From assembly GCA_964016885.1 (NCBI GenBank), contig CAXHJY010000714.1, positions 1 through 63,168 on the forward strand: DNA of 63,168 nt, given 5' to 3'. How positions within the stretch are numbered: the stretch's first letter is position 1; the number at the start of each line of letters is the position of its first letter. Below, piece after piece: positions 20,912 through 36,644 of this stretch. A model generated the notes under the pieces. It worked only from the letters and a program-made list of their open reading frames with translations. It ran no database searches and was not told the origin of the DNA. Source of the DNA: Eledone cirrhosa (taxonomy: Eukaryota). The position numbers and the translations under genes were made by a program.

Positions 20912-21077
20912 GTGACGAAACATAAGTCAATTACATGAACTCATAATCCTTTATTTACTGCTATATATATTTCGATGATAGCCATTGAATGGCTATGACC
21001 TCATCAGGCAGTTAGTCAGTTCTTAGATATGCCAGCTCTGTGTTTATAGTGTTGATGGTATCAGAGCCTTGGGACAT
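20912..21077 (-). mobile_element. ~166-bp non-coding hammerhead-bearing element, copy 1
   Basis: Reverse complement of 36479-36644 with about 4 substitutions; flanked by (TA)n and (TATG)n. Confidence 0.85.
20957..21012 (-). ncRNA. Minimal type I hammerhead ribozyme
   Basis: Minus strand: ACTGC-CTGATGA-GGTCATAGCCATTCAATGGCTATCATC-GAAA-T ATAT A-TA-GCAGT. Confidence 0.85.
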
Positions 21078-21654
21078 GTATGTATGTATGTATGTATGTA
21101 TGTATGTATGTATGTATGTATGTATGTGTGTGTGTCTCTGCCTGTATGTGTTGATGAGCCTGCGTGTGTGAGTATTCAACATCTTTTCTATACCAGCATC
21201 TTCTTTATGAAATCCTGACATGTAAAAGACAAATACAGTCCTGTGTAATTTCAGCCCAGAAGACAGAGCAGAACACATTCCCAAACGTATTTACCTAGTA
21301 TTTTTCTGTTTCCTAGAAGCAAGAAAAAAAACCCCCAACTAAAAACCAAAACAATATAAAATAAATAAATAAGGATGGGAAAATATCGGAAAAAAATCTC
21401 GCTAATCAGTTTAAGCAGACATAATAAGGTTTGCCAACGTAGGCACAACACCTATGATTTATTGAGAAACGACAACGAGGTTTTGTCGTTTTTCATCCCG
21501 TCACATGAGTGTTAATCACGTAAGTGGGAGAGATTATATGTGTCAATCAATCCTTGAATAGGGGATTCTAGTCGCCGAATTCGTAACGTTGTACTTAATG
21601 CACCTGAACGTTTTCTAATCGTTAAAAGTCAATCTCTGCCATCTTGCAACATTG

Positions 21655-21995
21655 GAACTGCTGCTGCTGCTCATGCTACTACTACTATTACTACTACTAC
21701 TACTACTACTACTACTATTATTACAACTACTATTACTGCTACTACTACTACTGCTACTACTACTACAACTGTTATGGTTGCTGCTGCTGCTACTACTGTT
21801 ATGGTTACTGTTGCTGCTACTACTAATACTAATACTGTTATGGTTACTGCTGCTACTACTACTACTACTACTACTACTACTACTACTACTACTACTACTA
21901 CTACTACTACTACGGTTAGAGCTGCTCCTACTACTACTACAGCTGTTATGGTTGCTGCTGCTGCCACTACTACGACTACTATTACTACTACAACA
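21655..21995. repeat. (CTA/CTG)n trinucleotide repeat
   Basis: Direct inspection. Confidence 0.95.
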
Positions 21996-22018
21996 GCTTC
22001 TGATACCATTACTAGTAG

Positions 22019-22201
22019 TTGGCAGTATCGGTAGAAGGTCGGATGCCATGCTTTGGAGCATAGGGTTACGGCCCGTTATGATCTGAGTTCAAAACCCGCC
22101 GAGGTTAACTTTGCCTTTCATCCTTACGGGGTCGATAAAATAAAGTACCAGTAATGTACTGGGTAATTGCTGGCCTTGTGCCAAAAGTAGAAACAATTAT
22201 T
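22019..22201 (+). mobile_element. SINE family A
   Basis: A box, B box, core and tail all present. Confidence 0.9.
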
Positions 22202-22802
22202 ACTACCGCTACCACTATTCCTCCAACAACGACTAATAATAATATAGTAGGTATAAAACTATGGCGAAAAAACGCTAACATTGGGTAGAATGAAATATTC
22301 TTTCCAGCTATCTACGAACGGAATTCTAATCCCATTGAGATCAGCTTTATCTCTCATGCTCCCGCGATTGATTGATAAAATACCAGTCTTTCTGTCCTTT
22401 TCATTCTCTTCCTTCCATCTCTCTCTCTCCGTCTTTCTCTATCTCTCTCTCTCTATCTCTCTCTCTCTCTCCCTCTCTCTGTATTATCCTTCTAACTTTC
22501 TGTGTTTTTCTTCATCTCTGCCTCTTCTTTTCCTTGCCTTTCTCTTTTTCTCTCATTAGAAAATTGGTTTTGCTCAAACCTGGTGAAATATGGGCTCCAG
22601 CATGTTTCAAAAATGCCCAGGACACACTGTAACTCCTAACGTTTTTCCACAATCCTTTCTACAATGCCATCAGATATTGAGAGCTCATGGTGCCTCGACA
22701 ACTTCTTGAGGAGTTGAAGATTTCAGGGAAGGAAAAAGGAAGAATATCTAGCGCTTTATTATTCACAATGTCTTTTCTCTTGTAAGACAACAGTGGGTCG
22801 CA

Positions 22803-23120
22803 GTTTGAGGGAGTCTTCATTGCAATTTCTAAAAGATCTAACCACCACACGTAATCTTCCTTGCTGATCCGTCTATAAAACTGTGGATCATATTTGTAGA
22901 AGAGGTTAATCTGATAGGCTGGTGTTCATGCCTCTGAAACCAATGATTCACTGTACCTTTTCTAAGACAATCTTCAGGCATGGTTTGAGGGAGTTTTCAT
23001 TGCAATTTCTAGCAGATATAACTACTACATATATTCTTCTTTGCCGATCCGTCTATAAAACCGTTGATCATATTTGTAGAAGAGGTCAATTTAACAGCCT
23101 GGTGTTCATGTCCCCGTAAC
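22803..23120. repeat. Diverged tandem duplication with a 180-bp period
   Basis: GTTTGAGGGAGT.TTCATTGCAATTTCTA...GATCCGTCTATAAAAC...GATCATATTTGTAGAAGAGGT...GGTGTTCATG at 22803 and 22983. Confidence 0.8.
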
Positions 23121-33147: not shown

Positions 33148-35621
33148 TAAATACTTTGTTCAGTGCTCTAATATATTGTAAAATTGTATTCGTTTAGTAA
33201 TCAACGAAACATACTAATCTTTGGTCATATATATATATCACAAAAAATTAAAGAGAATCAGTGTTGCGACGGTTGGAATTTATTGGACATATTAAAATCG
33301 TTTCTCTGGCGACCAGCTCGGGGCACGATCGATGTGATGATAGAACCTGACTCAGAAATCGCAAGGTCCTCAGATACGTCTTGATTCAACAAAGCAGACA
33401 TTCCAAAATTTGTGATATCATACCCTGCTCTGTGAGAGCATCGAGTGCTCAAACGGCCTACCGCATAAGGACGCTTTAAGCATCCAACAGCAATTATATA
33501 TATATATATATATATATATATATATATATATATATATATATATATATATATAAACAAACATAAATTATCGAGATTCGCATTTCGGCCTACGAAATAACGA
33601 AAAACAACCTCCGAGATGTGCGGCAAGTGCTCAATGATTCAAATGAACCAGAGCTATAACAAACGTTAAAGGCCAAACATACTGAGACGATGGTTAAACA
33701 ATCATTCGTATAGCCCCAAAAAACGATCAAGTAATTCGGGTATTGAAAATTTACCCGGACCCCTGGAAGGTTGTTAAAATCCAGTATATGGGTTTCTACG
33801 GCTCCTAAATCAAGTACCGTCCGCCTACATAAATAATGTCAGGCTTCTGGTAAGATGATTGAACAAGGAAGCCACTTTCTCAACAGGTTTTAGTTCAATG
33901 TTAATACAAGGACTGACTATTGCTGACCCCACGTGGGGATCGGCAAGGGAGGCAACCCCTATATCAGGCGAATGAATACAGTTGTGTATATTTTTGCAAG
34001 AATGCAAAAACATCACAAATCGAATAGAGTTCTCAACAGAGGGGTTACAATTAACATAAGCTATTTATCAGTCAATAGAATCAACTAAAAAATCAAGAAA
34101 ATTAACTGGTCAATAGCTAGAGTCTGGAGAATAATACAAAATATATATATAATACAATATATATATATCATACAATATATATATATAATACAATATATAT
34201 ATATATAATACAATATATATATGTATAATACAATATATATATATATATAGTGAATGACTGAATAACAAGGTCGGCTGTACAATAAGTTTTATTCGAAATA
34301 TTAACAATTGTTTCATTAGACCGGTGTGTCTAAAATCGGCTTGAGCTCTGCCGTCGGGGGTCATACTTTTTGCTATATATGAGAGAGGATTTTACTAGTT
34401 TTAAACTAGTAAAACTATTATATAGCAGTGTACATGATACTTGGGATATATATATATATATATATATATATATATATATATATACAGATTATGGAAATAT
34501 ATGTTTGATTAAAATGAAACGTTGTACTTTTCTACCCTTCCGAATTAAATGTCGTATCGTCATGATAAGTGTAAATGTAAGATCAACTAGAGGGGGAGGT
34601 AGTGGGGGAAGGAGAAAGTTATGAGAGAAGGGGGATGTAGTTGGGGGGGGGGGGGGGGGTTGTAATAAACATCAAAAGTAATTCATCAACGATTTGCTGC
34701 GTAATCAGTTAGCAAAGCTTTGAACTTGGCTTTATTCAGATTGTTATGTATGTGTGTATGTGTGCGTGTGTGTGTTTGTGTGTGAGTGCCTATGGATGTA
34801 TGTATATATGTATGTATTTATGTATGCACTTATTGCATATGTGTGTGTATGTATGTACTTGGGTATATTCGTATGTATGTTTGTGCTTATGTATGTTCGA
34901 TATATATATATCTAATCATGTATATAGGTACATATGTACGTATTCATATGTATATATGTGTTTATGTAATATATATATCTATATATATATATTGTACGTT
35001 TATATGTGCGTGTATATACATATATTAAATGTATTACTCCTACACGATTAGTCCTGTTTCATTATGTATCCTGTGGGAATCATTCATTCAAAAACAGCTT
35101 TATGTATTGAGTACTTCAACTTAGATTCCGTCTTTAAAAGGACCATTCAAAAATATATATATATATATATTTAGGTCTGTTGGTTCACCACTGGATAGAA
35201 CTGGTCATTCCGTATAGTCAACCTTGATGTAATATTAGGGAGAGCACTCGACGTAATGCAACTCACCCGTCTTCCTTTGTGTTGTTGGTGGTGCGAGTAC
35301 GGAATTAATTATTATAAAATAAAAGGAGGCTGTACTGGTGTAATTCTTTAAAAGGTTTATTATAATATGATAATTTAAGTGACTAGGTTCAATATGAATC
35401 AGGTGACATCATCAGATATTCGAAATTTAACAAAGGAATATAATAGACAAAATCCATGGGGATGAAAAGCAGAGACAAGACGGCAGCCGAACATTTAGCA
35501 GCTTCTACCTCGGTCAGCCGCCCTCAATATATATATACATATATACATACATACATACATAAGTACACTAATCTACATACATACATACATACATACATAC
35601 ATACATACATACATACATACA

Positions 35622-36025
35622 TGGTGGCTGCCAACTCGTTTTCGAGTACGGCCACTACTTTATATCCATGTAGGAGAACCCCTACCGATGCGCTGAACGA
35701 GTGTGACTTTTTAGTCCAGCCAGCGACTTGAAAACTCTGGTACAAACACTACACTTGTGACAATTATTGACACAGTGCTGGGCCCATGGTACCATGTGAG
35801 GACAAGTGCAGAGAGATCTCCAGATATAAAGCAATGCCTGTGCCGTGAAGCTTTTATAGTGAGCAAAGGCACTGCACAAAGCCAGTCCCACTCTCTTAAC
35901 CAAGATGATATTTACCAAAAAGAAGAACAAGTCAACATCATTGGATACCATCAGGGTTGCAGGTGTTATATCAGAATTTTCCTTCTCCTAGAATTCTGCC
36001 TTGACAAAGGCTAAGGGGTCATCTC
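35622..36025 (-). mobile_element. Non-autonomous RTE-derived bipartite element, copy c
   Basis: Minus frame encodes [25 protein letters not shown]; (CATA)n on both sides. Confidence 0.75.
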
Positions 36026-36058
36026 ATACATACATACATACATACATACATACATAAG

Positions 36059-36240
36059 TACAAAGGTAGACTGAAAGGTTCATAGGGTGATTATGAATGA
36101 GAGGTGCTAGGGCTGTGAAATCGTGCATGTAACTCTTCGTATATATAACGACAGCATATGGGTAGGTCTGCATATGATAGCATGTGTACGTGTGAGGAAG
36201 TATGTGTACCTATGCGTGCATTTGTTGCGTGTGATTGCCG
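36059..36240 (+). mobile_element. Probable Tc1/mariner-type transposon end
   Basis: TACAAAGGTAGACTGAAAGGTTCATAGGGTGATTATGAA...GCTAGGGCTGTGA resembles the reverse complement of 18972-19031. Confidence 0.45.
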
Positions 36241-36478
36241 GTTATGATTGTGAATATATGAGAAAGGTTGAGAGACCCCATATTAAAGAAGCCGTTTGTA
36301 AATACTTTCATATATTCAACTTATATATCAGATATTTGACTGTGTAATCATCTGCCTAAATTTCCCTACACACGCTTCGGTATATATATATATATATATA
36401 TATATATATATATATATATATATATATATATATATATATATATATATATATATATATATATAATATAATATATATATA

Positions 36479-36644
36479 ATGCCCCAAGGCTCTGATACCA
36501 TCAACACTATAAAGACAGAGCTGGCATATCTAAGAACTGACTAACTGCCTGATGAGGTCATAGCCATTCAATGGCTATCATCGAAATATATATAGCAGTA
36601 AATAAAGGATTATGAGTTCATGCAATTGACTTATGTTTCGTCAT
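36479..36644 (+). mobile_element. ~166-bp non-coding hammerhead-bearing element, copy 2
   Basis: Same two termini as 20912-21077; inserted in (TA)n. Confidence 0.85.
36544..36599 (+). ncRNA. Minimal type I hammerhead ribozyme
   Basis: ACTGC(36544-48)-CTGATGA(36549-55)-stem II ATAGCCA/TGGCTAT closed by G-C-GAAA(36583-86)-T ATAT A-TA-GCAGT; predicted cleavage after 36594. Confidence 0.85.

What the first reader, a model, noticed from the sequence alone, without database searches (positions are those of the whole stretch)
20912..36644. Discrete ~166-bp ribozyme-only mobile element present in two copies with identical ends
Seen: 20912-21077(-) and 36479-36644(+) start (ATG[C/T]CCCAAGG) and end (TTATGTTTCGTCA) at the same positions, differ by about 4 substitutions, lie 15 kb apart in opposite orientation, and both sit in TA-rich microsatellite. 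I see no ORF, no Pol III A/B boxes and no terminal inverted repeats. The hammerhead (56 nt, identical in both copies) is central. Inference: a recently active, defined-length non-autonomous element such as a minimal retrozyme or a solo PLE pseudo-LTR.
Basis: partly seen in the sequence, partly recalled or inferred. Interest (0 to 1): 0.8.

Follow-up and report, generated by a model that had tools for sequence, protein, structure and literature searches.

The report
Solo Penelope-type hammerhead repeat, young family
Two near-identical 166-base copies of a repeat carrying a complete hammerhead (self-cutting RNA) motif sit in simple-sequence repeats of a likely octopus genome; they belong to a many-copy family that is likely the non-coding end piece of a Penelope-type jumping gene, a known kind of element, and only their shared starting base is unexplained.

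Summary
There are two 166-nt copies with 4 substitutions, the same ends and unrelated flanks, each with an identical 56-nt type I hammerhead whose stem III is a palindrome predicted to form only in a dimer. Public reads show a multi-copy family. About 438 of some 500 reads at the 3' end run to the last base and into microsatellite. Most copies reach at least nt 9; one is 5'-truncated, and no tandem joint was seen. The tool masked nt 1-8, so a fixed 5' end rests on the two window copies alone. The window holds four other hammerhead families in TA repeats, showing the inverted, tailed and partial-tandem forms typical of Penelope-like elements (PLEs); one follows a GIY-YIG remnant and has a related stem II. 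Best reading: an ORF-less PLE pseudo-LTR unit, likely copied in trans from an uncut RNA and inserted in (TA)n. Solo pLTRs and retrozyme monomers are already described. No autonomous partner, RNA, circle or cleavage was shown. This is a new member of a known kind; the fixed 5' end is the open point.

The parts
20912..21077 (-). Copy A, 166 nt. It differs from the family majority at nt 145; nt 4 could not be checked.
   Evidence: read variants
36479..36644 (+). Copy B, 166 nt. It likely carries private changes at nt 36 and 166, since neither of its letters is listed at 5% or more in the laid runs.
36479..36527 (+). Predicted 5' hairpin (nt 1-49) opening at the first base. Frequent family variants (nt 18, 30, 32, 34) lie in its loop.
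   Evidence: z -2.6; 3 of 200 shuffles as good; variants
21029..21077 (-). Same predicted hairpin in copy A
   Evidence: z -2.0; 9 of 200 shuffles as good
36544..36599 (+). Type I hammerhead motif: 5-bp stem I, CUGAUGA, 11-bp stem II with one C-C mismatch, GAAA, palindromic ATATATAT stem III, predicted cleavage after 36594
20957..21012 (-). Identical hammerhead motif in copy A, predicted cleavage after 20962
36595..36644 (+). 50-nt segment from the predicted cleavage site to the sharp 3' end. It holds a predicted hairpin, and nt 162-165 pair with nt 60-63. Inferred to be the start site of reverse transcription.
   Evidence: inference from PMC11167929
21078..21135 (.). (CATA)n flank on the 5' side of copy A
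20899..20911 (.). Short (TA)n flank on the 3' side of copy A
36381..36478 (.). (TA)n flank on the 5' side of copy B
36645..36685 (.). (TA)n flank on the 3' side of copy B

Best explanation
The two copies are members of a young, many-copy, protein-free repeat family with an intact hammerhead motif, likely the pseudo-LTR (end repeat) of a Penelope-like retroelement that PLE enzymes would copy in trans into TA-type microsatellites. Steps: (1, inferred) a master locus, either an autonomous PLE or a short derivative, is transcribed from a start at nt 1. (2, predicted) The hammerhead stays uncut because stem III does not form in a monomer. (3, inferred from the in vitro work on an Anolis PLE) The GIY-YIG endonuclease nicks AT-rich DNA and the reverse transcriptase starts at a fixed internal site of the RNA, nt 166, which gives the sharp 3' end (the sharp end itself is shown). 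(4, inferred) It copies back until it runs off the RNA 5' end, like a strong-stop product, which gives the shared 5' end; earlier stalls give truncated copies, such as the one starting at nt 47 at the foot of the 5' hairpin. Solo copies would then be mostly dead ends, and the ribozyme would act only where two copies meet.
For: Sharp 3' end in microsatellite: X19 depth drops from about 500 at 20913-21 to about 8 at 20886-94; 333 reads have loose (TA)n ends and 105 run into another microsatellite; 22 X1 contigs have TA loose ends at 20897-98. Multi-copy and young: 2517 reads and 964 contigs laid, with 1753 of 2517 reads at 95% identity or better. Monomer stem III pairing probability is about 0.01, and the cofolded pair forms the double hammerhead, as described for PLE hammerheads (PMC4209133). 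A related hammerhead with the same ATATATAT stem III sits in a head-to-head inverted unit with a one-sided extension of about 90 nt (24190-24650), and its short arm ends within a few bases of where this element ends; inversion plus tail is the PLE signature (PMC8557442). The 8 letters after the core match the hammerhead behind the GIY-YIG remnant at 27438 at 7 of 8 (chance about 0.0004-0.0013 per comparison, 4 comparisons made). Three PLE 3' ends in the window stop at one and the same base before (TA)n. Internal RT start defining insertion ends, use of uncut RNA and AT-rich nicking were shown for Poseidon of Anolis (PMC11167929). PLE transcription starts inside the pLTR (PMC2377424 passages). 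Two independent random truncations would share a base (+/-2) with probability 0.003-0.017 for mean lengths of 150-1000 nt. There is no depth step at the cleavage site.
Against: No autonomous partner was found: the element's six frames match none of 150 PLE-like proteins, and frame +1 read with X at stops finds nothing (weak by the tool's own note). The 5' end of the family was not seen (21070-21100 skipped and 15 loose-end rows dropped), so only 2 copies show it. Truncated copies exist (loose ends behind 21031 in X19, and behind 20966, 20986 and 21012 in X1; 83 further loose-end rows were not shown). The element itself shows no tail, inversion or ORF start. The transcription start at nt 1 is untested. 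The other PLE ends in the window have ragged 5' ends (about 580, 900 and 1420 nt).
Confidence: 0.5

Rival explanations
1. Non-LTR retrozyme monomer: a tandem master is cut by dimeric hammerheads into unit RNAs that are ligated to circles, and a PLE reverse transcriptase copies exactly one turn from the internal start, so that both ends are fixed and the ribozyme lies in the middle.
For: It explains both fixed ends in one step. The dimer-dependent stem III needs two copies to act. Sibling-family variants keep stem II pairing (nt 99 and nt 103 at about 30% of X1 depth, with a C at nt 83 in the loose end behind 20985; that they lie on the same molecules is inferred), which suggests selection on the fold. 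Dispersed monomers of tandem retrozymes are described (10.64898/2026.07.22.740005), and circles as RT templates are proposed (PMC7229834).
Against: No joint was listed in any of the 3 runs with laid sequence, and 0 joints were dropped, though RAD reads sample few loci and the 5' end was masked. There is no tandem in the window. The published model expects tandem cDNA copies from circles.
Confidence: 0.2
2. Ordinary 5'-truncated 3' ends of a long PLE. The two copies share a start because of a truncation hot spot (microhomology with the TA target, or a simple repeat in the parent just upstream of nt 1) or by chance; the family as a whole has ragged 5' ends.
For: Most metazoan minimal hammerheads are single motifs attributed to truncated PLEs (PMC4209133). 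Other PLE ends in the window are ragged at the 5' side and are also flanked by microsatellite on both sides. The flat depth up to nt 9 in X19 and X1 fits copies that run on upstream just as well.
Against: The chance of the same base is under 2% without a hot spot. The two upstream flanks are different microsatellites. The first base also opens a predicted hairpin whose stem is spared by the frequent variants.
Confidence: 0.2
3. Not PLE-dependent: a SINE-like hammerhead repeat of the Schistosoma Sm-alpha kind moved by a LINE, a very short solo LTR (it reads TG...CA near its ends), or a DNA-level duplication.
For: No PLE partner was identified. LINE remnants are present in the window. Nt 11-22 are the reverse complement of the plant initiator-tRNA primer-binding motif (recalled; listing).
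Against: No Pol III A box, no tRNA, no target-site duplication, and unrelated flanks. The primer-site match has the opposite orientation to the hammerhead and does not fit an animal initiator tRNA (recalled). Hammerhead type, spacing to the 3' end and TA targeting match the PLE units next door.
Confidence: 0.1

Closest known systems
Hammerhead-bearing pLTRs of EN+ Penelope-like elements, including solo pLTRs (PMC4209133, parts 1-2 of 4 read; PMC3846280, passages; PMC8557442, passages)
   Same: Type I hammerhead with long stem II, 5-bp stem I, G10.1-C11.1 pair and short palindromic stem III; position near the 3' end; (TA)n targets that hide target-site duplications; occurrence as single motifs; pLTR-sized unit.
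   Different: No ORF, tail or inverted partner on these two copies; both start at the same base; the extra unpaired base between positions 9 and 10.1 is absent in the register that pairs best; no parent element identified.
Metazoan non-LTR retrozymes and their dispersed monomers (PMC7229834, passages and Discussion; bioRxiv 10.64898/2026.07.22.740005, parts 1-3 of 5)
   Same: Short, non-coding, low-GC, type I hammerhead unit in many copies, inside the reported size range (51-972 bp); proposed to be mobilised by PLEs.
   Different: Retrozymes are defined by tandem units and circular RNA. Here no tandem or junction was seen and RNA could not be tested. Cephalopods are not covered in the papers found.
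Poseidon of Anolis carolinensis, PAc (PMC11167929, main text parts 1-2 of 4)
   Same: Works-like model: AT-rich nicking, fixed internal RT start near the hammerhead, uncut RNA as template.
   Different: PAc is autonomous and its ORF starts in stem II; no such ORF start is open here.
Short non-autonomous PLE families (Chlamys MRC1, PMC8557442 passage; Heliconius, PMC6685494, 2 passages)
   Same: ORF-less PLE-type units that amplify in trans.
   Different: Chlamys mostly lack hammerheads; the Heliconius passages give no structure to compare.

Membership tests
Type I hammerhead ribozyme | Core CUGANGA ... GAAA ... UH with stems I and II | tested here: met
   All core bases present; 5-bp stem I and 11-bp stem II; null mean 0.01 hits per window
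Type I hammerhead ribozyme | Match to an Rfam hammerhead model | tested here: not met
   0 matches at gathering score; 0 of 16 matches at E<=5 is a hammerhead family
Type I hammerhead ribozyme | Self-cleavage | not testable with these tools
   Folding only: monomer stem III probability about 0.01 and the active stem II register about 0.36; the dimer cofold gives extended stem III
PLE pLTR hammerhead (min-HHR type) | Short palindromic stem III, long stem II, G10.1-C11.1 | tested here: met
   ATATATAT is its own reverse complement; G78-C104 pair; features
PLE pLTR hammerhead (min-HHR type) | Extra base between positions 9 and 10.1 | tested here: not met
   The best register pairs G78; the base is present in the 27438 hammerhead
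EN+ Penelope-like element (pLTR-derived unit) | Sequence shared with the pLTR of an autonomous RT-EN element | tested here: inconclusive
   No genome held; no protein link; only a 7-of-8 stem II match to the hammerhead of an EN-bearing 3' end
EN+ Penelope-like element (pLTR-derived unit) | Fixed 3' end inserted in (TA)n / AT-rich target | tested here: met
EN+ Penelope-like element (pLTR-derived unit) | Partial tandems, inverted copies, optional tail | tested here: inconclusive
   Absent in the two copies and no joints; present in related hammerhead units of the window
Non-LTR retrozyme | Tandem units each with a hammerhead | tested here: inconclusive
   None in the window and no joint in the reads, but nt 1-8 were masked and few loci were sampled
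Non-LTR retrozyme | Linear and circular unit-length RNA | not testable with these tools
   No RNA data could be laid
Pol III SINE (Sm-alpha type) | A and B boxes or a tRNA-derived head | tested here: not met
   No A box at one mismatch; one B-like hit with one mismatch; ARAGORN 0 genes
Solo LTR / LTR retrozyme | 4-5-bp target-site duplication and type III hammerhead | tested here: not met
   Flanks differ; the hammerhead is type I
MITE / DNA transposon | Terminal inverted repeats | tested here: not met
   The first 15 nt and the reverse complement of the last 15 nt are unlike

The most novel reading that the evidence does not exclude
A fixed-length, roughly thousand-copy ribozyme-only element made by exact one-turn reverse transcription of a circular RNA of about 165 nt by a PLE enzyme. 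It would be a cephalopod retrozyme whose hammerhead is off as a monomer and on as a dimer, and whose precise genomic ends record both the RT start site and the closing of the circle.
Probability: 0.2. Interest if true: 0.65.

Novelty: new member of a known kind. Interest (0 to 1): 0.3.

Why it matters
As a solo pLTR family it adds a young, likely octopus, example to a known class and little more. If the 5' end proves fixed across the family, it becomes a compact natural readout of how PLE reverse transcription ends (run-off at a transcription start versus one turn of a circle). The in vitro study leaves that step open, and it bears on how retrozymes arise from PLEs. I found no description of fixed-length strong-stop or one-turn PLE products, and none of cephalopod hammerhead repeats, in seven searches (listings seen). 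Repbase, Dfam and subscription journals were not searchable.

Tried and rejected
No whole genome was held, so copy number and end homogeneity could not be counted directly. Rfam found nothing relevant. Metagenome scans gave 0 matches for an exact 23-mer and for a degenerate family pattern. The viral scan gave 10 loci with the loose core pattern; I saw no stem I in the printed flanks and took them as chance. X13 laid 0 reads, which is no test. X3 holds one 333-nt contig over the element at depth 6; trace DNA and a true copy cannot be told apart, so no claim of spread to other species is made. The idea that nt 1-66 code for a PLE C-terminus found no support. Pfam had no hit on the two GIY-YIG remnants, so their PLE identity rests on motifs read in the sequence and on relatives; the clade was not assigned. 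The one supplementary file of PMC8557442 held as text has none of three element motifs; its hammerhead file (File S2) and the preprint's supplements could not be seen and may bear on whether the family is already catalogued. Lunse et al. (PMC5785218) is not held; only its title was seen in a reference list. Earlier findings by sequence and place were empty. Rejected: segmental duplication, MITE, Pol III SINE, solo LTR (see membership test). The copy-number figure of 750-2300 is my arithmetic on summed contig depth, which the tool says is not a copy number; treat it as an order of magnitude only.
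Full report
Observation. The two stretches align without gaps over 166 nt and differ at element positions 4, 36, 145 and 166. They lie 15.4 kb apart in opposite orientation and are the only full copies in the window. Copy A has (CATA)15 upstream and a short (TA)6 downstream; copy B has (TA)n on both sides. The flanks are unrelated and no target-site duplication can be read. There are no terminal inverted repeats, no Pol III A box, no tRNA and only a 21-codon ORF. The host is likely an octopus: a neighbouring endonuclease remnant has its one hit in an Octopus bimaculoides protein at 57% identity.

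The ribozyme motif. Nt 66-121 hold a complete type I hammerhead: a 5-bp stem I, CUGAUGA, an 11-bp stem II with one mismatch, GAAA, and a predicted cleavage after nt 116 (window 36594). Stem III is the palindrome ATATATAT. In the monomer it pairs with probability about 0.01, and the active lower stem II register competes with a misfold (about 0.36). Two copies cofold into the double-hammerhead form. Rfam does not recognise it, but my stem-checked scan finds 10 motifs in the window against 0.01 expected. This architecture matches the PLE-associated hammerheads described in PMC4209133 (parts 1-2 of 4 read). Cleavage is untested.

The family. No genome was held. The run search listed 21 rows, 11 holding the stretch or part of it, and I laid 4 of the 21 on 20850-21100. 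In RAD reads of organism A (X19, 2517 reads) depth falls from about 500 at the last nine bases to about 8 beyond the TA run. 333 reads have (TA)n loose ends with low agreement, which points to several loci, and 105 run into another microsatellite, so the 3' end is sharp. Depth at 21057-65 (nt 13-21) is about 1465 against 1574 in the 3' half. One locus (113 reads) starts at nt 47, at the foot of the predicted 5' hairpin, and is flanked by (TA)n. In X1, 964 contigs were laid. Their fall towards the 5' end roughly follows what the tool's cut at 21070 would cause, so most copies reach nt 9. The tool skipped 21070-21100 and dropped 15 loose-end rows, and 83 more were not shown, so the family's 5' end was not seen. 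No joints were listed. Variants at nt 99 and 103 (about 30% of X1 depth) and a loose end behind 20985 point to a sibling family that shares the 3' half and keeps stem II pairing; that they lie on the same molecules is inferred. A rough copy number of several hundred to a few thousand is my arithmetic on a quantity that the tool says is not a copy number.

The neighbourhood points to PLEs. The same scan finds four other hammerhead families, all in TA repeats: a head-to-head inverted unit at 24190-24650 with the same ATATATAT stem III and a one-sided extension of about 90 nt, whose short arm ends within a few bases of where this element ends; a second inverted unit at about 6030-6340 (duplicated near 9700-10000); a partial tandem at 53877-54210; and the hammerhead at 27438 behind a GIY-YIG remnant. 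The 8 letters after the core match the 27438 motif at 7 of 8. Three PLE 3' ends (2444-3081, 27238-28138, about 55416-56834) stop at the same base before (TA)n and have ragged 5' ends. Inverted copies, tails, partial tandems and (TA)n bias are the PLE signature (PMC8557442, passages). No autonomous partner of this element was found.

Mechanism. For Poseidon of Anolis, the endonuclease nicks AT-rich DNA, reverse transcription starts at fixed internal sites that match genomic insertion ends, and uncut RNA is the template (PMC11167929, parts 1-2 of 4). That accounts for the sharp 3' end and for a hammerhead left whole in the middle; the reads also show no depth step at the cleavage site. It does not account for the shared 5' base, which random truncation would give with probability under 2%. 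PLE transcription starts inside the pLTR (PMC2377424, passages), so I favour run-off at the RNA 5' end, a strong-stop-like product (0.5). The rivals are one turn of a circle made from a tandem master (0.2; no junction seen), plain truncation with a hot spot (0.2; not excluded, because the 5' end was masked) and a non-PLE origin (0.1). Shown: sequence, motif, multi-copy state, sharp 3' end, microsatellite targets. Predicted: folds and dimer dependence. Inferred: PLE origin, mobilisation in trans, and the source of the 5' end.

Comparison and novelty. Solo pLTRs (PMC3846280, passages), single hammerheads from truncated PLEs, dispersed retrozyme monomers derived from pLTRs (bioRxiv 10.64898/2026.07.22.740005, parts 1-3 of 5) and short non-autonomous PLEs are all in print. 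It works like a PLE-mobilised pLTR unit. Membership in the non-LTR retrozymes is not shown, since tandems and circles (PMC7229834, passages and Discussion) were not found or could not be tested. PMC6765202 (passages) was used for the Sm-alpha comparison. Seven searches found no account of this family or of fixed-length PLE products; repeat databases and some supplements were out of reach. Verdict: a real feature and a new member of a known kind, interest 0.3, with one cheap decisive test (5' breakpoints in an assembly).

Noticed in passing
window 24190-24650: Head-to-head inverted ORF-less unit with two identical hammerheads (24291-, 24463+) sharing the ATATATAT stem III; the right arm runs about 90 nt further before (TA)n, longer than the 30-40-bp tails in the papers read.
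   Followed up: partly
window about 6030-6340 and 9700-10000: Second inverted hammerhead unit (core CUGAGGA, 12-bp stem II) with a one-sided extension of about 90 nt, present twice through a 3.4-kb local duplication. It shares 13 of 14 letters with nt 146-159 of the element.
   Followed up: partly
window 53877-54210: Partial-tandem unit of about 335 nt between microsatellites: a 45-nt repeat holding half a hammerhead, then a complete one at 54060 with a palindromic stem III.
   Followed up: partly
window 2444-3081(-), 27238-28138(-), 55416-56834(+): Three PLE 3' ends with hammerhead-like motifs 200-240 nt upstream. All stop at the same base, and their last 22 nt read as seven codons from an ATG that differ only at third positions, likely the ORF start carried in the element's 3' end. 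No such N-terminus among 150 relatives.
   Followed up: partly
window 36489-36500 (element nt 11-22): On the minus strand these 12 letters equal the plant initiator-tRNA primer-binding motif (recalled; 13 papers hold the motif with 'primer binding site', listing only). Unexplained in an animal repeat and possibly chance; half of it lies in the hairpin stem.
   Followed up: partly
window 25388-25857, 32146-32612, 35527-36025: A three-copy repeat of about 470 nt (94-97% identical) with a common 3' end in (GTAT)n/(AT)n; two of the three also share their 5' start. It looks like a short non-autonomous RTE-type derivative (recalled resemblance).
   Followed up: no
window 36537-36545 (element nt 59-67): Two branch-point-like words (CTGAC, CTAAC; recalled consensus) directly before stem I. 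D. virilis Penelope has an intron ending at stem I, but no splice donor is evident here.
   Followed up: no
X1 loose ends before 20952: 7 contigs share the hammerhead's 3' side but diverge after nt 126, suggesting a further sibling family with a different 3' end.
   Followed up: no
window 39316-40824 and 46222-48634; 61593-63056: LINE remnants: three related copies in inverted arrangement, one with a 410-aa open frame at 39454-40686, and a 487-aa reverse-transcriptase-like frame at the window end.
   Followed up: no
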